Origin: an uncultured Eubacteriales bacterium | GTDB taxonomy: Bacteria; Bacillota; Clostridia; Oscillospirales; UBA644 | DNA length: 64,000 nucleotides | NCBI GenBank assembly: GCA_934438175.1 | Contig: CAKSBH010000002.1 | Span: 156,780 to 220,779 of the forward strand | Direction: 5' to 3' | Shown: piece after piece, positions 5,710 to 30,102 of the stretch | How the letters are laid out: every line of letters begins with the position of its first letter | Numbering within the stretch: the first letter of the stretch is position 1 | Translations under genes and position numbers: made by a program | The notes under the pieces: model-generated | Databases searched by the model: none | The model's input: the letters and a program-made list of their open reading frames with translations, nothing else | What the model was told of the DNA's origin: nothing

Positions 5710-6627
5710 ATGAATCAGTATCTGGATGTTGCACCGGAGGTCGCGGAAGCGCTCCGGCAGAATCGACCGGTGGTGGCGTTGGAATCCACCATCATTTCGC
5801 ACGGAATGCCGTATCCGCAGAATGTGCAGACGGCGCTGACTGTGGAGAAGACCATCCGGGAAAACGGAGCGGTTCCCGCAACCATCGCCGTGATCGGCGG
5901 TCGGCTCAAGGCGGGTTGCTCGGCGGAAGAAATCGAATATCTGGGAAAACAGGGACAGGCGGTTACCAAGGCATCCCGCCGGGATCTGCCGGTTCTTGTT
6001 GCCCGGAAGGCGGACGGTGCCACAACCGTGACGACAACGATGATGATTGCACATATGGCGGGCATTGACGTCTTTGCTACGGGCGGCATCGGCGGCGTTC
6101 ACCGCGGTGCGGAAACGACCATGGACATTTCCGCAGACCTGGAAGAGCTCGCCATGACTCCGGTTATGGTAATCTGCGCCGGGGCGAAATCCATTCTGGA
6201 TCTGGGGCTGACGCTGGAATACCTGGAAACAAAGGGGGTTCCGGTCATCGGTTACGGAACGGAGGAATTGCCTGCTTTCTATACGCGCAGAAGCGGGTTT
6301 AAGGTGGATTACCGCATCGACACGCCGGAGGATCTGGCGGCGGCGTTTTCCGCACAGCGCAATATGGGTCTGCGGGGCGGTATGCTGGTGACCAACCCCA
6401 TTCCGGAGCCCTACTCGATGGATCCCGATGTCATCAACCGGGCAATCGACGAGGCCGTGGCGGAAGCCCGTGCAAAGGGAATCCACGGCAAAGCGACCAC
6501 GCCGTTTTTGCTGGCGAAAATCAAGGATCTGACCGGCGGCGACAGCCTGGATGCGAACATTCAGCTGGTGCTGAACAATGCGCGGCTTGCGGCAAAAACC
6601 GCTGCGGCACTGTGTGCGAATCATTGA
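5710..6627 (+). CDS. psuG: pseudouridine-5'-phosphate glycosidase
   Basis: 305 aa. N-terminal VVALESTIISHGMPYPQN and overall PsuG/YeiN-like sequence. Confidence 0.92.
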   Translation: MNQYLDVAPEVAEALRQNRPVVALESTIISHGMPYPQNVQTALTVEKTIRENGAVPATIAVIGGRLKAGCSAEEIEYLGKQGQAVTKASRRDLPVLVARKADGATTVTTTMMIAHMAGIDVFATGGIGGVHRGAETTMDISADLEELAMTPVMVICAGAKSILDLGLTLEYLETKGVPVIGYGTEELPAFYTRRSGFKVDYRIDTPEDLAAAFSAQRNMGLRGGMLVTNPIPEPYSMDPDVINRAIDEAVAEARAKGIHGKATTPFLLAKIKDLTGGDSLDANIQLVLNNARLAAKTAAALCANH

Positions 6628-23136: not shown

Positions 23137-24672
23137 ATGAAACAAAAGGGATTCAGGCGGATCGTATGTGCGGTCTGCCTCCTTCTGTCTTTTCTGCTTT
23201 CTTCCTGTTCGCTGTCCTCCCTTCTGGACGGGCTGGAAGAGAAGAAACCGGAGGACGGCGGAACGTCGGACGCACCGCATCTGACGCTTGGTTTTTTTGA
23301 AAACGATTCTCTTGTGCCGTACTTTGCGCAGCACCGCACAAACCGTGAGGTGCTGACGCTGGTGTTCTGCGGGTTGTATGCTGTGGATGCCTCGTATACG
23401 GCGCAGCCGGTTCTGGCAGAGCGCGGGGAATGGAGCGGAAACACGCTGACCGTGACGCTGAGAGAGCAGGCGGTGTTTTCCGACGGCTCACCGCTGACGG
23501 CAGAGGACTGCGTTTTTTCGTATAACCTTGCCGCTTCGGACGGTTCGGTGTACCGGGACCGCTTCTCGTCCATCCGGGCGTGGCGGGCGGTGGACAATCG
23601 GACGTTTGAGGTGGAATTCTCGTCCGGAAACCCGTATCAGGTCAATCTGCTGGATCTTCCCATTCTCAGAACGGGTACGGAAACGGCGGATCTTCCCGTC
23701 GGTGCGGGACGGTATTTTTTCAAGCGCTCGCCCGAGAAAACGGGGAAAGACGGGCTTCGTCTGTACCGCAATGAGAATTTTCCGGGAGAGCCCGCTGTGG
23801 CGGATACGGTGGAACTGACGTTGGTCTCTTCCGATGAAGATCTTCTGTACGCCTTCAATTACGGCGGCTCGGATGTTCTGTACCGGGATCTCGCCGGCGG
23901 AACCGCATCCTACCGTGTCAGTGCGCAGACCGTTCCCTGTCTGTCCAATCGCCTGACGTATGCAGCCATCAATCCTTCCCGGGAAATTTTTTCCAACGGG
24001 GCGTTGGTGCTGCGGGCGTTGCAGCAGTTGACGGACCGCGCGTCGGTGGACGCGCTGCTGGGAGGATGCGGAAAAGCCGTGTGGACACCGTTCAATCCCG
24101 GCTGGTCGGTGACGCAGAATGCCGGCTTCGCCCCGGATACCGGCACGGAGGACGGTGCGCGGGACGCTTTTTACAAGGCGCGCTGGTACCGGAACTCCGA
24201 AACGCAGCGGCTGGAATGGTATGGGAAGGAAATCTCGCTTACCATCATCGTTGCGGCGGAAAACGCGTTTGAGGAACCGGTTGCGCAGAATCTTGCCGCC
24301 CGGCTGGAATCCTTCGGCGTACGTGCTTCGGTACGCGTTCTCGGGCAGAAGGATTATGCCGAAGCGGTACGGCAGGGGACTTATGATCTTCGGATCGGGA
24401 CCGTGGAGATTTCCGCGGATATGAATCTGTCCGCTCTCTATGCCGATGCCCGTGTTCCGGTTTCTGCGGAGCTGCAGCAGAAAACCGCGCAGTTTCTGCG
24501 GGGAGAATGTTCTGCCATGGAACTGAACACTGTGTTTCAGGAGCAGCTGCCGCTGATTCCGTTGTATTACACCTCCTATGCCGTGGCGGTCAACATGAGG
24601 GTAGAGGGAACCTTTCTTCCCACCCCGACTTCCCTGCTCGGCGGACAGGAGACCTGGGAAAAGAAAAAATAA
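23137..24672 (+). CDS. family-5 (peptide/nickel type) ABC substrate-binding lipoprotein, orphan
   Basis: 511 aa. Signal peptide with lipobox LLSSC. SBP_bac_5-like sequence. No permease or ATPase genes nearby. Confidence 0.75.
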   Translation: MKQKGFRRIVCAVCLLLSFLLSSCSLSSLLDGLEEKKPEDGGTSDAPHLTLGFFENDSLVPYFAQHRTNREVLTLVFCGLYAVDASYTAQPVLAERGEWSGNTLTVTLREQAVFSDGSPLTAEDCVFSYNLAASDGSVYRDRFSSIRAWRAVDNRTFEVEFSSGNPYQVNLLDLPILRTGTETADLPVGAGRYFFKRSPEKTGKDGLRLYRNENFPGEPAVADTVELTLVSSDEDLLYAFNYGGSDVLYRDLAGGTASYRVSAQTVPCLSNRLTYAAINPSREIFSNGALVLRALQQLTDRASVDALLGGCGKAVWTPFNPGWSVTQNAGFAPDTGTEDGARDAFYKARWYRNSETQRLEWYGKEISLTIIVAAENAFEEPVAQNLAARLESFGVRASVRVLGQKDYAEAVRQGTYDLRIGTVEISADMNLSALYADARVPVSAELQQKTAQFLRGECSAMELNTVFQEQLPLIPLYYTSYAVAVNMRVEGTFLPTPTSLLGGQETWEKKK

Positions 24673-24677
24673 AAAGC

Positions 24678-24713
24678 GTGCCCTCCGGATATCCGGAGGG
24701 CACTTGTTTTTTT
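24678..24713. terminator. bidirectional terminator
   Basis: GTGCCCTCCGGA (24678-24689) / TCCGGAGGGCAC (24692-24703), then TTGTTTTTTT. Confidence 0.85.
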
Positions 24714-24719
24714 ACGGAA

Positions 24720-25289
24720 TTATTCAAAGTAAAGCTCGTGGATTCTCTTTTTCGCTTCACGGATCCGGCGGCTGAAGACGCAGGTGAAGATGATGTCGCA
24801 GATTCCGTCGATAATCAGCGAAATTCCGGCGAACATCATAACCGTGTCAAAGGTGTCGAACATCACCAGGATGCCCAGCGCAACCGTGAGTACGGAAAGG
24901 AGAAGCATAAAGCCCCAGCCCTTGATGTGCGCACGGGCACAGTCGATGCTGTCTACCAGAGAGGTGCTGCCGTCGATGACAATGAACAGACCGAAAATAA
25001 CGGTCAGCAGTTCTTTGACCATGGAGGGATTGATCAGGCAGAAAGCGCCGGAAAGCAGAAGCGCAATGCCGATGATCAGGGAATGCGCACTGAAGGCAAA
25101 GCCGTAAAGAATGAAGGTTACGACCGCAACGACCCCGGCGCAAAGCAACGTGATTCCGGAAACCGTGCAGAGAACATCCGCCGATTCTTTCGGAAGAACA
25201 AGGAACAGGACGCCGATGGCAATGGCGAGAACGGCAATGAGGATTCCGCTCCATTTCATTTTTGTAATGGCTTTTTTGATTTGACTCAT
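24720..25289 (-). CDS. HdeD-family (DUF308) membrane protein
   Basis: 189 aa. Six TM segments with the repeated DUF308 pattern. GGAAGGA SD. Confidence 0.8.
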   Translation of the reverse strand: MSQIKKAITKMKWSGILIAVLAIAIGVLFLVLPKESADVLCTVSGITLLCAGVVAVVTFILYGFAFSAHSLIIGIALLLSGAFCLINPSMVKELLTVIFGLFIVIDGSTSLVDSIDCARAHIKGWGFMLLLSVLTVALGILVMFDTFDTVMMFAGISLIIDGICDIIFTCVFSRRIREAKKRIHELYFE

Positions 25290-25316
25290 AAAAAATCTTC
25301 CTTCCCTATGATTTTT

Positions 25317-25943
25317 TTATCTTTTCTCCGTGTTACACGAATGAAAATTCGAAGAGGATGTCTGGGAAAGGCGCTGGGTCGCGCCCTGAATCTGGTCCGA
25401 CAGCGCCGTGTGAAGAAAACGAACCAATTCTTCCGGCGAACGGTCGATTTCTCCCCGCAGCCAGCTTTCCGTCAGGGCTCCGACCGCGAGCACGCAGAAC
25501 CTTGTGGCAATCCGCAAATCTTCCCGGCTTCCGGCAAGCGGACCGATTTCCGCACAGATCTGCCGGATGGTGTTGGAAACCATGTTGTAGATGTCTTCTT
25601 CAAAAAAATGACGGAGACGTCCGCGCTCCACCGAAATCAGCGCCATGTAGCAGAATTCCCGGTTTTCGTCCAGATACCGGAACAGCTGAAGAAGCCCGTC
25701 CTTACGGACAAGCCCGGTCTGTGCGTCGTACAGAAGCGGAAGCGCTTCCTGCTCAAACGTCCAGCGCAGCAGGGCATAGATATCGTCAAAGTGATAATAG
25801 AAGTTCTGACGGCGGATTCCGCAACGGTCGGTGATGTCCCGGATTGCGATCCGGTCCAGCGGCTTTTGCTGCATCAGCGCCTTCAGCGCGCACGACATCT
25901 TTTTTTTGGTCTGTTCCGAAGAAGAATAAGTCTGTTTCTGCAC
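25317..25943 (-). CDS. TetR/AcrR-family transcriptional regulator (DhaS-like C-terminal domain)
   Basis: GTG start 25943, 9 nt after GGAGG. HTH IAIRDITDRCGIRRQNFYYHFDD. The track start at 26033 has no SD. Confidence 0.8.
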   Translation of the reverse strand: MQKQTYSSSEQTKKKMSCALKALMQQKPLDRIAIRDITDRCGIRRQNFYYHFDDIYALLRWTFEQEALPLLYDAQTGLVRKDGLLQLFRYLDENREFCYMALISVERGRLRHFFEEDIYNMVSNTIRQICAEIGPLAGSREDLRIATRFCVLAVGALTESWLRGEIDRSPEELVRFLHTALSDQIQGATQRLSQTSSSNFHSCNTEKR

Positions 25944-26068
25944 GGAATCTTTCCTCCTTCGCGACAAAGCCCTGTTTTCTCGTCTTTTTCTGTTTTCAGT
26001 ATAGCACATTTTTTCAGACTTATCACGGGTCAAATCAAATAAAATGTCATATTTTATGGGGATTTTTC

Positions 26069-27646
26069 TTATTTTCCGCTTGCACCGTAGTTGGACAGCA
26101 CGCGGGCGGAGGGGTCATTTACGTCGCAGCCGCGCCAGGTGCGGTTCGGCATCCAGAAGTCCGGAATCATCTGCGACTGCCCGGGATAGTATTTTTCAAA
26201 GATCTCACGGTACAGCAGAGATTCTTTGGTGAAGGGAACTGCGTGCGCGTATTCACGGCGGCGTGTTTCGAATTCCGCATCGGTGTAGCGGCTTTCGGCG
26301 TATTCCTTGAGATCGTCCACCATGGAATGACCGACGGCGTCGGAGAATGCCGCTTTTTCCCGGTACAGGATTTCGTGCGGCAGATAGTCGCCCTCAAAAG
26401 CGTGACGAAGCAGATATTTTCCGATTCCGTAGGTGTTTTGCTTTTTCTTCGGATCGACCGAAAGAACGTATTGTACGAAATCCAGATCGCCGAACGGAAC
26501 CCGTGCCTCCAGGGATTGAGAGGAGATGCACCGGTCGGCACGCAGGACATCGTATTCATGCAGTTCCCGGATCCTTTTTTCGGATTCCTTTTGGAATTCC
26601 TCGGCGGACGGGGCAAAATCGGTGTATTTATAGCCGAACAGTTCGTCCGAGATTTCGCCGGTGAGCAGCACGCGGATGTCGGTATGGCGGTGAATCCAGC
26701 GGCAGAGCAGATACATTCCCATGGATGCGCGCACGGTTGTGATGTCAAACGTGCCCAGCTGCCGGATGACCTCTTCCAGAGAGTCCAGAACTTCCTGCCG
26801 GGTCATGGTCACCTCGGTGTGATCGCTGCCGATGTAATCCGCCACCTGACGGGCATATTTCAGGTCAATGGCATCGGTGTCCATGCCGATGGCAAAGGTC
26901 CGCAGGGGCTTTTGCTCTTTTTTTGCGGCAATGGCACAGACCAGGGAAGAATCCAGCCCCCCGGACAGGAGGAATCCGACCTTGGCATCGGAAACAAGGC
27001 GTTTCTCCACGCCCGCCGTCAGTTTTTCACGGATGTTCCGGCATACGGTTTCCACGCTGTCTTCGCACACGTTCTGCACGTTTGTGATATCGCGGTAGCA
27101 GACGAATTTTCCGTCCTTCCAGTAATGTCCGGGCGGGAACGGGAGAATGGTTCCGCAGAGTCCGACCAGGTTTTTGGGTTCACTGGCAAAAACGATCACG
27201 CCGCGGCGGTCATAGCCGTAGTACAGCGGACGGATGCCGATGGGGTCCCGCGCGGCAAGGTATCTGCCGGTTGCTCCGTCGTACAGGATCATCGCGAATT
27301 CCGCGTCCAGCATGCCGAACATGTTTTCGCCGTATTTGCGGTACAGCGGCAAAAGGATCTCACAGTCCGAGCCGCTGCGGAACGTGTACTCCGTCTGCAG
27401 TTCCTGTTTCAGTTTTTCATAACCGTAGATTTCTCCGTTGCAGACCGCAAAGCTTCCGTCCAGCTCAAACGGCTGCATTCCGGCGTCGGTCAAGCCCATG
27501 ATTGCCAGGCGGTGAAAGCCCAGAAGTCCTTTGCCGGTATCGAGAATCCGGCTTTTGTCCGGTCCCCGCGAGACGGTGGCGGCAAAGCCCTCTTCAAAGG
27601 ATGCGAGGTCGGCGCCGGCGCCGCAGTAGCCCATAATGGAACACAT
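26069..27646 (-). CDS. asnB: asparagine synthase (glutamine-hydrolysing)
   Basis: 525 aa. Ntn nucleophile Cys2 (MCSIMGY) and PP-loop SGGLDSS. Confidence 0.92.
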   Translation of the reverse strand: MCSIMGYCGAGADLASFEEGFAATVSRGPDKSRILDTGKGLLGFHRLAIMGLTDAGMQPFELDGSFAVCNGEIYGYEKLKQELQTEYTFRSGSDCEILLPLYRKYGENMFGMLDAEFAMILYDGATGRYLAARDPIGIRPLYYGYDRRGVIVFASEPKNLVGLCGTILPFPPGHYWKDGKFVCYRDITNVQNVCEDSVETVCRNIREKLTAGVEKRLVSDAKVGFLLSGGLDSSLVCAIAAKKEQKPLRTFAIGMDTDAIDLKYARQVADYIGSDHTEVTMTRQEVLDSLEEVIRQLGTFDITTVRASMGMYLLCRWIHRHTDIRVLLTGEISDELFGYKYTDFAPSAEEFQKESEKRIRELHEYDVLRADRCISSQSLEARVPFGDLDFVQYVLSVDPKKKQNTYGIGKYLLRHAFEGDYLPHEILYREKAAFSDAVGHSMVDDLKEYAESRYTDAEFETRRREYAHAVPFTKESLLYREIFEKYYPGQSQMIPDFWMPNRTWRGCDVNDPSARVLSNYGASGK

Positions 27647-27670
27647 GGCGTTTTGTTTCCTTTCCGTGTT

Positions 27671-27835
27671 TTAATCCCATGCGGAGGTATCGGCTCCGTA
27701 CGGGGAGGGATATTCCGACGTGTTTTCGATCCGGAGCGGCTGGGACGGGTCGGTGACCATACGCATGGGATGGCGGGGCACATCGTAGTGAAACGGATAT
27801 GTGGTGCGGGTGGTTTGCTCGGTTTTTGTTTTCAT
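27671..27835 (-). CDS. unannotated small ORF, 54 aa, between glnN and asnB
   Basis: Hand translation: MKTKTEQTTRTTYPFHYDVPRHPMRMVTDPSQPLRIENTSEYPSPYGADTSAWD. AAAGGAG SD 8 nt upstream, starting 3 nt after the glnN stop. GC-rich third positions like neighbouring genes. Below the 60-aa cutoff of the ORF track. Confidence 0.55.
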   Translation of the reverse strand: MKTKTEQTTRTTYPFHYDVPRHPMRMVTDPSQPLRIENTSEYPSPYGADTSAWD

Positions 27836-27853
27836 AACGGAATCTCCTTTTTT

Positions 27854-29950
<2,097 letters not shown>

Positions 29951-29967: not shown

Positions 29968-30008
29968 AAAATAAAAAAGGCAATGCGTCCTGCGGGACGT
30001 CATTGCCT
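29968..30008 (-). terminator. leader terminator T2 (glnN operon)
   Basis: RNA AGGCAAUGaCGUCC-CGCA-GGACGCAUUGCCU followed by UUUUUUAUUUU. Lies between the promoter and the glnN SD. Confidence 0.8.
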
Positions 30009-30064
30009 CGGTTTTCATAAAAAAAGGCGTCTGAGAGCCAAAACTCAAAGACGCCATTGCCTTT
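29993..30064 (-). promoter_or_regulatory. two ANTAR-type hexaloop hairpins (H1, H2), candidate antiterminator elements
   Basis: H1 AAAGGC[AAUGGC]GUCUUU (30064..30047). H2 CGaGGC[AAUGAC]GUCcCG (30010..29993). Loops have A1 and G4. Each competes with the 5' arm of T1 or T2. Confidence 0.6.
30019..30055 (-). terminator. leader terminator T1 (glnN operon)
   Basis: RNA GGCGUCU..GAG-UUUUGG-CUC..AGACGCC followed by U7. Confidence 0.75.
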
Positions 30065-30073
30065 ATGAGTGCT

Positions 30074-30102
30074 ATTATACAGGATGGAAACGGATTTGTC
30101 AA
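30074..30102 (-). promoter_or_regulatory. sigma-A promoter of glnN-sORF-asnB
   Basis: Minus strand TTGACA (30102..30097), 17-nt spacer, TATAAT (30079..30074). Confidence 0.7.

What the first reader, a model, noticed from the sequence alone, without database searches (positions are those of the whole stretch)
27671..27835. Unannotated 54-codon ORF with a strong SD wedged between GSIII and asparagine synthase
This ORF is below the 60-aa cutoff of the supplied track. On the minus strand, glnN stops at 27854-27856. The sequence AAAGGAG follows 3 nt later, and after 8 more nt there is an ATG at 27835. This opens a 54-codon frame ending in TAA at 27671-27673, 24 nt before the asnB start. The product is MKTKTEQTTRTTYPFHYDVPRHPMRMVTDPSQPLRIENTSEYPSPYGADTSAWD. 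It has no Cys and no hydrophobic segment, is Pro/Thr-rich and is probably disordered. Third codon positions are GC-rich like the flanking genes, and no terminator separates it from either neighbour, so it should be co-transcribed under the dual attenuator. I do not recognise the family. Its position between two glutamine-handling enzymes suggests a small modulator protein; cyanobacterial GS is controlled by small inactivating factors, for example. That idea is speculation.
Basis: partly seen in the sequence, partly recalled or inferred. Interest (0 to 1): 0.55.

Follow-up and report, generated by a model that had tools for sequence, protein, structure and literature searches.

The report
Conserved microprotein gene between glnN and asnB
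The 54-codon ORF is a real small gene, a very divergent member of an unnamed family of disordered ~55-residue proteins that gut Clostridia carry inside their nitrogen-assimilation operon and that nearly always end in Trp-Asp/Glu; what the protein does is untested.

Summary
glnN (GSIII) stops at 27854-27856, AAAGGAG lies at 27844-27850, the ATG is at 27835, TAA is at 27671-27673, and asnB starts 24 nt later.

Several results say the ORF is coding:
- Codon usage fits the flanking genes only in this frame.
- The RNA shows no excess structure.
- The frame is intact in all 11 related contigs, with seven protein variants.
- No terminator separates it from either neighbour.

Standard searches find only its own species cluster. 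Small ORFs in the same slot of other Clostridia exposed a family of about 400 clusters at 90% identity. Members are almost all 55-56 aa, have no Pfam or NCBIfam model and are under purifying selection. They always lie in (gdh)-glnN-(amt/PII)-sORF-[Asn T-box]-asnB or aspS. Of 119 representatives, 112 end in W-D/E.

The window protein shares only the C-terminal motif, plus length, ribosome-binding site and position. Membership is therefore probable, not proven.

AlphaFold predicts disorder. My best guess is a trans-acting microprotein that docks on a nitrogen-assimilation enzyme, with GSIII favoured. This is inference only. It shows no relation to the cyanobacterial inactivating factors. Interest is moderate.

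The parts
27671..27835 (-). Small ORF: 54 codons plus TAA. Product: MKTKTEQTTRTTYPFHYDVPRHPMRMVTDPSQPLRIENTSEYPSPYGADTSAWD
   Evidence: Searches confirm the frame. Codon usage is positive only in this frame and GC3 is 0.69. The RNA fold z-score is +0.89, so there is no excess structure. The frame is intact in 11 related contigs and the exact protein is on at least 40 contigs.
27844..27850 (-). Shine-Dalgarno AAAGGAG, 8 nt upstream of the ATG
   Evidence: Eight of the nine family members with DNA in hand have GAAAGGAG, and one (L081) has AAGGAGG, ending 7-9 nt before the start.
27674..27700 (-). Codons for the C-terminal motif Y-G-A-D-T-S-A-W-D, directly followed by the stop. The family motif is [YF]-[AS]-x-[ND]-T-[TSA]-x-W-[DE]-stop.
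   Evidence: A C-terminus-anchored score matrix built without the window cluster gives 13.9 bits. That ranks 7th of 8732 ORFs; the six above it are all family members in the same slot, and the next unrelated ORF scores 8.5. hhalign aligns residues 44-54 to the family's last 11 columns with P=0.0035. The motif is invariant in all seven strain variants.
27854..29950 (-). glnN, type III glutamine synthetase, 698 aa. It contains the invariant motif [19 protein letters not shown] (residues 118-136).
26069..27646 (-). asnB, glutamine-hydrolysing asparagine synthase B, 525 aa, with the N-terminal Met-Cys
   Evidence: NF006949 at 623 bits against a cut-off of 499.
27656..27665 (-). Weaker ribosome-binding site of asnB (GGAAAGGAAA) in the 24-nt gap after the sORF stop. 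There is no T-box here, unlike most relatives.
   Evidence: for the sequence. Rfam finds no T-box in the window.
30074..30102 (-). Sigma-70-type promoter TTGACA-17-TATAAT of the glnN-sORF-asnB transcript
   Evidence: 12 of 12 positions match. It is conserved in relatives.
29968..30054 (-). glnN leader with two tandem terminator-like hairpins. Each is preceded by a GGCAATG(G/A)CGTC box.
   Evidence: for the sequence. One search detects the inner stem of the second hairpin. One search shows conservation in L111, L002 and L001, and a single copy in L112, L113 and L004.

Best explanation
The ORF is a translated small gene. It is the middle cistron of a glnN-sORF-asnB transcript that starts at the promoter at 30102..30074 and passes the tandem-terminator leader.

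It is most likely a fast-evolving, species-specific member of an undescribed Clostridia microprotein family. Members of that family are about 55 aa, hydrophilic and predicted to be disordered. Each has a strong ribosome-binding site and sits in the nitrogen-assimilation operon, after glnN or the Amt-PII gene and before the asparagine unit.

The conserved part is a C-terminal linear motif, [YF]-[AS]-x-[ND]-T-[TS]-x-W-[DE], that ends exactly at the carboxy terminus.

Inferred mechanism: the protein is made together with GSIII and AsnB and acts in trans. It docks its free C-terminal tail on an enzyme of the operon and tunes that enzyme's activity or assembly. GSIII is the favoured target because glnN is the one enzyme gene present in every operon that carries the sORF.

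Shown here: it is coding, it is co-transcribed, the family exists and is under purifying selection, and the synteny holds. Inferred only: action in trans, the target, and the direction of the effect.
For: **Coding in the window**
- Ribosome-binding site AAAGGAG with 8-nt spacing.
- Codon log-likelihood +0.48 in frame only, and GC3 of 0.69.
- No RNA structure beyond shuffled controls, z = +0.89.
- Frame intact in 11 related contigs. pN/pS is 0.15-0.31, against 0-0.13 for glnN and asnB, on very few substitutions.

**Co-transcription**
- No terminator-like site on the coding strand between the three genes, and a perfect promoter upstream of glnN.

**The family**
- A profile search found 420 clusters among 472 candidates. 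The best 119 representatives are almost all 55-56 aa, have no Pfam domain and are named 'hypothetical protein'.
- 112 of the 119 end in W-D or W-E.
- dN/dS is 0.07-0.37 with synonymous sites near saturation. Differences by codon position are 313, 261 and 584.
- Motif codons vary synonymously and the stop codon varies between TAA and TGA.

**Synteny**
- Wherever the contig reached far enough (all but three short ones), the order was (gdh)-glnN-(amt/PII)-sORF-[Asn T-box]-asnB or aspS. This includes loci found through the sORF alone.

**The window's link to the family**
- C-terminal score 13.9 bits, first among 8726 non-family ORFs, about 6 SD above the mean.
- hhalign aligns end to end with P = 0.0035.
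- Same length, ribosome-binding site and slot.
- A MAFFT alignment also matches F15, P20, D29-P30 and L34.

**Disorder**
- AlphaFold gives pLDDT 65.6 and 66.2, pTM 0.13 and 0.14, and no secondary structure.

**Lead for GSIII as the target**
- The tail [ST]-[AT]-W-D matches T-A-W-D in the GSIII motif GYTAWDPTS, which is nearly invariant in all 88 GSIII sequences (A126 is T in 2).
- That 4-mer pattern occurs once in 36,787 residues of long ORFs in the window, and that one site is the GSIII motif.
Against: - An HMM of the family built without the window cluster does not detect the window ORF at all. phmmer against 1.84 billion representatives finds only its own cluster. hhalign probability is only 9%. 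Homology therefore rests on about 10 residues plus context.
- The closest GSIII relatives lack the sORF. These are L111 at 84% identity with a 30-nt glnN-asnB spacer, L112 and L113 with glnN-aspA, and L002. The window gene is confined to one species, and a recent origin or capture cannot be excluded.
- Among 88 GSIII loci the family is patchy, occurring in about 10 lineages.
- Nothing here tests translation, binding or any effect on enzymes. A fused-chain AlphaFold test was not possible.
- The GSIII tail similarity was noticed after the fact, with an expected chance of about 0.02 per protein. The proposed equivalence of WDPTS to the GSI FDGSS loop was not confirmed: hhalign aligned only the catalytic core.
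- The strain-level pN/pS rests on only 1-3 substitutions of each kind.
Confidence: 0.5

Rival explanations
1. It is a cis-acting translated leader (uORF). Translation of the sORF, or stalling of the ribosome on the conserved C-terminal ...T-x-W-D-stop as in TnaC-type arrest peptides, would control expression of the downstream asparagine unit. It could do so by translational coupling to asnB, by blocking Rho, or by affecting folding of the T-box that starts 12-26 nt after the stop in most members.
For: - Between subfamilies, conservation is concentrated in the last 10 or so residues and ends exactly at the stop. That is typical of arrest peptides.
- The sORF always directly precedes the asparagine unit. 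An Asn T-box begins 12-26 nt after the stop in the main subfamily.
- Where the T-box is absent, asnB starts 10-35 nt after the stop in the window, L054, L081 and L037.
- The asnB ribosome-binding site in the window is weaker than that of the sORF.
Against: - Within the main subfamily the whole 45-residue body is conserved, for example DFKEQTPE and PDPLYEKAFLSRED, not only the tail.
- A 235-nt T-box separates the sORF from asnB in most members, which rules out direct coupling there.
- Many relatives have the same T-box placed directly after the preceding gene with no sORF, so the T-box does not need it.
- There is no run of Asn codons (one Asn codon in the window) and no terminator or antiterminator after the sORF in the window.
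- The stop codon identity varies between TAA and TGA.
Confidence: 0.17
2. It is a functional small protein whose role is unrelated to GSIII or AsnB, for example a stress or stationary-phase protein or a partner of Amt-PII or of a protein encoded elsewhere. It would simply ride on the nitrogen-regulated transcript.
For: - It is coding, is under purifying selection and sits in a conserved slot, as for the best explanation.
- The upstream neighbour varies: glnN, the Amt-PII fusion, or an 89-aa ORF in L098. The downstream gene can be aspS instead of asnB.
- No single enzyme neighbour is directly adjacent in all cases.
Against: - Strict confinement to this one operon wherever the contig reached far enough argues for a role in nitrogen or asparagine metabolism.
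- No paralogue was seen elsewhere in the window.
Confidence: 0.2
3. The window ORF is a chance or very young open frame in the glnN-asnB spacer with no function. Its resemblance to the family tail would be coincidence.
For: - No homologue is detectable by HMM or phmmer.
- It is absent from the nearest relatives.
- The start region resembles the asnB upstream region of L111: GAGATTCGGAGG against GGAGATTCCG.
- A 54-codon open frame has a chance of about 0.075 per frame.
Against: - Strong ribosome-binding site and frame-specific codon usage.
- The tail motif scores best among 8726 unrelated ORFs and ends exactly at the stop.
- Same length and slot as the family.
- No frame disruption in 11 contigs whose neighbouring genes differ at up to about 7% of synonymous sites, and the motif is invariant.
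Confidence: 0.08
4. It is a precursor of a ribosomally made natural product, for example a lasso peptide, processed by the adjacent asparagine-synthetase-like enzyme. Alternatively the region is a degenerate T-box or another structured RNA and not a gene.
For: - Lasso cyclases are AsnB homologues and their precursors are 40-60 aa (general knowledge; PMC7533575 surfaced).
- Relatives carry a T-box at this position.
Against: - asnB is the housekeeping enzyme: NF006949 at 623 bits against a cut-off of 499. The lasso cyclase model NF033535 scores only 102 bits against a cut-off of 525.
- No protease or RiPP-recognition gene is nearby.
- The same glnN-asnB pair exists in most species without the sORF.
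- Rfam finds no T-box or other family here even at E<=10, and the fold z-score is +0.89.
Confidence: 0.02

Closest known systems
Unnamed Clostridia small-protein family found here (clusters P0002-P0120; e.g. NCBI 'hypothetical protein IJ043_02450' and 'IKK10_04550' from Clostridia MAGs)
   Same: Length of 54 aa against 55-56 aa, with a hydrophilic, disordered character. GAAAGGAG-type ribosome-binding site. Same slot between glnN or amt-PII and the asparagine unit, on the same strand. The C-terminus ends in [YF]-x-x-[ND]-T-[ST]-x-W-D.
   Different: Only 11-22% identity over the whole length. The central PDPLYEKAFLSRED block is reduced to D-P..P-L. The window protein is not detected by a family HMM. 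There is no T-box after it. It is confined to one species.
Cyanobacterial GS inactivating factors IF7 (GifA) and IF17 (GifB)
   Same: They are small proteins that regulate a glutamine synthetase by direct binding, and IF7 is largely disordered (my own knowledge; reviewed in PMC6316151).
   Different: They act on type I GS, not GSIII. They are basic, are encoded away from the GS gene and are made under nitrogen excess through NtcA repression and a glutamine riboswitch. Here the protein is acidic to neutral and co-transcribed with glnN, no Rfam family was found at the locus, and no curated protein family matched.
Small protein sP26 of Methanosarcina mazei (23 aa; binds GlnA1 and enhances its activity) and GS regulation by oligomer modulation
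   Same: sP26 is a microprotein induced together with GS under nitrogen limitation, and it is reported to bind GS and stimulate it (Gutt et al. 2021, cited in PMC11800386; PMC11957540, PMC10651883). This is the closest functional analogy if the sORF acts on GSIII.
   Different: sP26 is archaeal and acts on a type I-alpha GS. It is half the size, has no sequence relation and is not in the GS operon. No interaction data exist for the present family.
C-terminal tails of GlnR and TnrA that bind feedback-inhibited GS in Bacillota
   Same: A short disordered C-terminal segment of a partner protein docks on GS (PMC9249791, PMC4335299).
   Different: Those are DNA-binding regulators with MerR-type domains that bind type I GS. 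The sORF has no DNA-binding domain.
Regulatory arrest and leader peptides (TnaC, SecM, MifM; attenuation leaders)
   Same: A short ORF with a good ribosome-binding site lies directly upstream of a regulated gene. Between subfamilies, conservation is focused on the C-terminal residues next to the stop.
   Different: There is no run of codons for the regulating amino acid and no downstream terminator or antiterminator in the window. The whole peptide is conserved within the main subfamily, and the T-box works without it in many relatives.

Membership tests
Unnamed 'TxWD-tail' microprotein family of Clostridia (this study) | Length 53-62 aa with a strong GAAAGGAG-type ribosome-binding site 7-9 nt before the start | tested here: met
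   The window has 54 aa and AAAGGAG with 8-nt spacing. The lengths of the 119 representatives are given.
Unnamed 'TxWD-tail' microprotein family of Clostridia (this study) | Position on the operon strand, after glnN or amt-PII and directly before the asparagine unit (T-box, asnB or aspS) | tested here: met
   In the window it lies 18 nt after the glnN stop and 24 nt before asnB.
Unnamed 'TxWD-tail' microprotein family of Clostridia (this study) | C-terminus [YF]-[AS]-x-[ND]-T-[TSA]-x-W-[DE] followed directly by the stop | tested here: met
   The window has Y-G-A-D-T-S-A-W-D-stop, with one mismatch (G where the family has A or S). The anchored score is 13.9 bits, first among 8726 non-family ORFs.
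Unnamed 'TxWD-tail' microprotein family of Clostridia (this study) | Statistically significant similarity over the whole length (HMM or profile-profile) | tested here: not met
   A family HMM built without the window cluster gives no hit at E<=100 among 726 window ORFs. phmmer finds only its own cluster. hhalign covers only the last 11 residues, with P=0.0035 and probability 9%.
Unnamed 'TxWD-tail' microprotein family of Clostridia (this study) | Central block PDPLYEKAFLSRE(D/N)K (main subfamily) or LEQPFLSE (subfamily 2) | tested here: not met
   The window has only D29-P30..P33-L34 at the aligned columns.
Cyanobacterial GS inactivating factors (IF7/IF17) | Sequence homology to GifA or GifB | not tested
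   No IF7 or IF17 sequence or model was at hand. Pfam, NCBIfam and PDB searches gave no hit of any kind.
Cyanobacterial GS inactivating factors (IF7/IF17) | Target is a type I GS, and expression is controlled by a glutamine riboswitch and NtcA | tested here: not met
   The adjacent enzyme is type III. Rfam finds no glutamine riboswitch in the window. The gene is co-transcribed with glnN.
Amino-acid attenuation leader peptides | Run of codons for the regulating amino acid, plus overlapping terminator and antiterminator hairpins downstream | tested here: not met
   The window ORF has one Asn codon. No terminator-like site follows it on its strand, and the fold z-score is +0.89.
Nascent-chain arrest peptides (TnaC type) | Ribosome stalling at or near the stop that depends on the peptide sequence | not testable with these tools
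   Only the pattern of C-terminal conservation is compatible with this. Testing it needs toeprinting or ribosome profiling.
Lasso-peptide or other RiPP precursor | Dedicated AsnB-like cyclase, leader protease and recognition element, and a core peptide with a ring-forming Asp/Glu at position 7-9 plus a tail | tested here: not met
   The lasso cyclase model scores 102 bits against a cut-off of 525, while AsnB scores 623 bits against 499. No protease or recognition gene is in the neighbourhood. In the putative core, GADTSAWD, the only Asp within the ring-forming range (position 7-9) is the C-terminal residue, so no tail would be left.
T-box leader (RF00230) | Match to the covariance model between glnN and asnB | tested here: not met
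   There is none in the window at the gathering threshold or at E<=10. L064 has one at 6334-6568 with 71 bits.

The most novel reading that the evidence does not exclude
[quoted passage not shown] Its free C-terminal ...T-x-W-D tail copies the GSIII segment G-Y-T-A-W-D-P-T-S, which is nearly invariant in all 88 GSIII sequences examined.

That segment may be the GSIII counterpart of the Asp50' 'latch' loop (FDGSS) of type I GS. In type I GS the neighbouring subunit contributes this loop to complete the ammonium site.

By competing with or supplementing that contact, the disordered microprotein would tune GSIII assembly or activity after a nitrogen shift, in step with asparagine synthesis.
Probability: 0.12. 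Interest if true: 0.75.

Novelty: new variant of a known kind. Interest (0 to 1): 0.47.

Why it matters
Type III glutamine synthetase is the main ammonium-assimilating enzyme of many gut Clostridia and Bacteroidota. The 2025 review PMC11800386, as far as I read it, names no protein partner for type III GS and notes that the role of one of its loops is unknown.

A widespread, selected microprotein family sits inside the glnN operon. It occurs in roughly 400 sequence clusters in gut and rumen metagenomes, with no curated model and no cultured host seen here. Its invariant free C-terminal Trp-Asp gives a concrete, cheap handle: a synthetic 12-mer peptide, pull-downs and enzyme assays. With it one can ask whether GSIII or AsnB is controlled after translation in these organisms.

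It is also a clean example of a microprotein that evolves so fast that only a terminal linear motif and synteny reveal its relatives. Standard annotation and homology searches miss such cases.

If it proves to be only a passenger gene or a leader peptide, the finding is of modest, local interest.

Tried and rejected
1. Direct homology searches with the 54-aa sequence gave nothing beyond its own 90% cluster. I tried Pfam, NCBIfam, a word-indexed search of 5.8 billion proteins, and exhaustive phmmer against 1.84 billion representatives.

2. tblastn of the peptide against 80 GSIII loci gave only noise, with E >= 0.26. The family came to light only when I listed ORFs in the orthologous spacers.

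3. A family HMM built without the window cluster did not detect the window ORF. I replaced it with a C-terminus-anchored score matrix and hhalign.

4. I rejected the structured-RNA or T-box-remnant reading. Rfam finds nothing at E<=10 and the fold z-score is +0.89.

5. I rejected the lasso/RiPP reading (scores, context).

6. I rejected read-through fusion of glnN, the sORF and asnB. All three share one frame in the window, but the spacing in L054 is not a multiple of three (coordinates), so this is coincidence.

7. The 932-aa antisense ORF at 25844..28642(+) and two overlapping same-strand ORFs have no Pfam hits. I treat them as artefacts of codon bias.

8. I tried to model a GSIII-sORF fused chain with AlphaFold. 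A hand-joined sequence gave a misaligned MSA, with the GSIII C-termini pulled onto the sORF. I did not submit it.

9. hhalign of GSIII against a type I-like GS aligned only the catalytic core. The WDPTS = FDGSS equivalence therefore remains unverified.

10. Five literature searches found no description of this family or of any small protein linked to GSIII or AsnB in Clostridia. The GSIII structure paper (doi 10.1016/j.str.2011.02.001) is not held.

11. My by-eye guess that the 89-aa ORF in L098 is HPr-like got no Pfam support, so I dropped it.
Full report
**1. The observation**

Read on the minus strand, the region is exactly as described.
- glnN ends with TGA at 27856-27854.
- AAAGGAG lies at 27850-27844.
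- The ATG is at 27835, followed by 54 sense codons.
- TAA is at 27673-27671.
- A 24-nt gap contains a weaker ribosome-binding site, GGAAAGGAAA, and asnB starts at 27646.

The upstream gene has the three GSIII domains. Its real start is the Met at 29950, giving 698 aa. The downstream gene is a canonical asparagine synthase B, at 623 bits against a cut-off of 499.

Upstream of glnN there is a perfect TTGACA-17-TATAAT promoter at 30102..30074. Relatives conserve it. No terminator-like site on the coding strand separates glnN, the ORF and asnB.

**2. Is it a gene?**

An open 54-codon frame in a 207-nt spacer is not remarkable, at about 0.075 per frame. Other evidence makes the case.
- GC3 is 0.69, against 0.73 for glnN and 0.70 for asnB. 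A codon-usage log-likelihood trained on the two neighbours is +0.48 in this frame and negative in the other five.
- The RNA folds no better than shuffled controls, z = +0.89.
- Rfam finds nothing credible here even at E<=10: three sub-threshold, implausible hits.
- The exact protein has been called on at least 40 public contigs, including NCBI assembly GCA_964318985.1 and a 586-kb ENA contig whose stretch examined is identical to the window. Its 90% cluster holds seven variants.
- The frame is intact in 11 related contigs. pN/pS is 0.15-0.31, against 0-0.13 for the neighbours, on only 1-3 changes of each kind. The last eight residues are invariant.

**3. Relatives**

Searches with the sequence alone fail. 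Pfam and NCBIfam give nothing. The word-indexed search and an exhaustive phmmer run over 1.84 billion representatives find only its own cluster.

I then fetched 80 GSIII loci from species-representative genomes. The glnN-asnB adjacency is widespread. The spacer is 10-112 nt, or 236-803 nt, or 1.1-2.3 kb (mostly about 2 kb, holding an Amt-PII fusion gene).

Listing ORFs in the mid-sized spacers showed small ORFs with the same strong ribosome-binding site in the same slot. All end in ...T-x-W-D/E.

A profile built from these recovered 420 clusters among 472 candidates. The top 119 representatives are almost all 55-56 aa, have no Pfam domain and are named only 'hypothetical protein' in Clostridia MAGs.
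- The main subfamily reads M..KK..F.PQ[IV]DFKEQTPE..LK.EKPDPLYEKAFLSREDK..[ST]EYA[QR]NTTTWD.
- A second subfamily of 60 aa reads ...PDEEPELH.P.EE..LEQPFLSE.GE.E.G[FY]S.NTS.W[DE].
- 112 of the 119 end in W-D or W-E. The rest are single-residue variants or stop-loss singletons.

The family is protein-coding. Across seven species, dN/dS is 0.07-0.37 with synonymous sites close to saturation. Differences by codon position are 313, 261 and 584. The motif codons differ synonymously and the stop is TAA or TGA.

**4. Context of the family**

Wherever the contig reached far enough (all but three short ones), the order is (gdh)-glnN-(amt/PII)-sORF-[Asn T-box]-asnB. This includes loci found through the sORF alone.

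In L042 the gene after the T-box is an AspRS with a GAD domain. In L100 the region after the T-box matches the L042 aspS region, but that comparison was made in a shifted reading frame and L100 was not rechecked.

The element after the sORF is a T-box: RF00230 at 71 bits, E = 1.8e-15, below the gathering score of 93. Reading the specifier loop in register across nine or more loci gives AAC (Asn) followed by A.

The T-box starts 12-26 nt after the sORF stop. Many relatives have the same T-box directly after the preceding gene with no sORF. The window, subfamily 2, L037 and L083 have the sORF but no T-box.

On a GSIII tree the sORF is patchy, in about 10 of 88 lineages.

**5. Does the window ORF belong to the family?**

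- Against: a family HMM built without the window cluster does not detect it, and overall identity is 11-22%.
- For: a 12-residue score matrix anchored at the C-terminus, also built without the window cluster, gives the window ORF 13.9 bits. It ranks 7th of 8732 ORFs in the window plus 80 loci. All six above it are family members in the same slot, two of them newly recognised (L037, L042). The next unrelated ORF scores 8.5, and the mean is -12.2 with SD 4.4.
- hhalign aligns residues 44-54 end to end with the last 11 family columns, P = 0.0035, although its probability is only 9%.
- Length, ribosome-binding site, strand and slot agree. MAFFT needs one 2-residue gap within the shared body and also matches F15, P20, D-P and L34.

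I put membership at about 75-80%.

The nearest GSIII relatives lack the sORF. L111 (84%) has a 30-nt spacer whose sequence resembles the window's sORF start region. L112 and L113 have glnN-aspA. L002 has a 67-nt spacer. The window gene is therefore species-restricted, and loss in relatives cannot be told apart from capture.

**6. What it does**

AlphaFold predicts no fold for the window protein or for a main-family member: pLDDT 65.6 and 66.2, pTM 0.13 and 0.14, no secondary structure. There are no PDB or NCBIfam relatives.

The protein is disordered and strongly translated, its conservation peaks in a short motif at a free C-terminus, and it is made from the same transcript as GSIII and AsnB. 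The simplest reading is a trans-acting microprotein that docks on a partner through that tail.

glnN is the only enzyme gene present in all operons that carry the sORF. The tail [ST]-[AT]-W-D repeats T-A-W-D of the GSIII segment GYTAWDPTS, which is nearly invariant in 88 of 88 sequences (A126 is T in 2). That pattern occurs once in 36,787 residues of long ORFs in the window, at that very site.

From my own knowledge of GS, [FYWL]-D-G-S-S is the type I signature that holds Asp50', the 'latch' contributed by the neighbouring subunit. WDPTS may be its GSIII counterpart. hhalign aligned only the catalytic core, so I could not verify this. This is a lead noticed after the fact, not a result.

The main rival is a cis-acting leader or arrest peptide. 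The stop-anchored conservation and the constant position before the asparagine unit favour it. Whole-length conservation within the main subfamily, the intervening T-box, the many T-boxes without an sORF, and the lack of any attenuator after the window ORF count against it.

I rejected the lasso/RiPP, T-box-remnant and read-through readings.

**7. Comparison with what is known, and novelty**

The functional analogies are IF7/IF17 of cyanobacteria, sP26 of Methanosarcina, and the GlnR/TnrA tails. All of them act on type I GS (PMC6316151, PMC11800386, PMC9249791). I found no sign of a relation to any of them, though no direct sequence comparison was made, and the regulatory set-up differs.

Five literature searches found nothing on this family.

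It is an undescribed family of a familiar general kind: a microprotein inside a metabolic operon. Its function is unknown. Interest is moderate. It would rise if the peptide proves to bind GSIII.

Noticed in passing
L064:6334-6568. Also L033, L042, L078, L085, L098-L110, L001, L003, L004, L007, L008, L012 and L031, just upstream of asnB. Absent from window 27647-27853.: An Asn-specific T-box (specifier read as AAC followed by A) sits inside the operon, directly after the preceding gene's stop. It scores 71 bits, below Rfam's gathering score of 93, so default annotation misses it. After the antiterminator there is only a conserved 5-bp CAGCA/TGCTG helix and no U-run, so its expression platform is unclear. 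The window species has lost it or never had it.
   Followed up: partly
window 29968-30102 (-): The glnN leader has a perfect sigma-70 promoter followed by two tandem terminator hairpins. Each is preceded by a GGCAATG(G/A)CGTC box, so the first box could pair with the 3' arm of the second hairpin. The leader is conserved in relatives: two copies in L111, L002 and L001, one copy in L112, L113 and L004. L112 and L113 carry an ANTAR response regulator divergently upstream. No Rfam family matches.
   Followed up: partly
L042:6129-7895; also L001, L003, L012, L033, L037 and L098-L110: A 575-588-aa fusion of an ammonium transporter (PF00909) with a C-terminal PII domain (PF00543) lies between glnN and the sORF or T-box in many relatives. 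It is absent from this operon in the window.
   Followed up: partly
window 25844-28642 (+) and 24507-26042 (+): Two long antisense open frames were seen. One of 932 aa lies opposite asnB, the sORF and the glnN 3' end. One of 511 aa lies opposite the tetR and DUF308 genes. The 932-aa frame has no Pfam hit. It stays open because glnN, the sORF and asnB happen to share one reading frame. I judge both to be codon-bias artefacts.
   Followed up: yes
L083:5746-6000: The 255-nt spacer between glnN and the sORF holds a weak remnant of the Amt N-terminus (tblastn E=0.005). This suggests a deleted amt-PII gene. After the sORF a 13-bp hairpin without a U-run replaces the T-box.
   Followed up: partly
L098:4706-4975: An extra 89-aa ORF with its own ribosome-binding site lies between amt-PII and the sORF. 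It has no Pfam hit.
   Followed up: partly
L100:3414-5551 against L101:4989-6050: Two metagenome contigs carry the identical sORF protein and a T-box, but the next gene differs. In L100 the region matches the L042 aspS region (the comparison was made in a shifted reading frame and not rechecked). In L101 the next gene is asnB.
   Followed up: no
L089:3190-4757: One metagenome contig of the window species has asnB split into 75-aa and 427-aa pieces, with 10 gap positions relative to the window, while the sORF is intact. This may be an assembly error or a pseudogene.
   Followed up: no
L111:5098-5127 against window 27836-27853: In the closest relative that has a glnN-asnB junction, the 30-nt spacer (aaaaagaaaacGAGATTCGGAGGataacggt-ATG asnB) resembles the window's glnN-sORF spacer (aaaaaaGGAGATTCCGtt-ATG sORF). 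This would fit either a clean deletion of the sORF in L111 or its insertion in the window lineage.
   Followed up: partly
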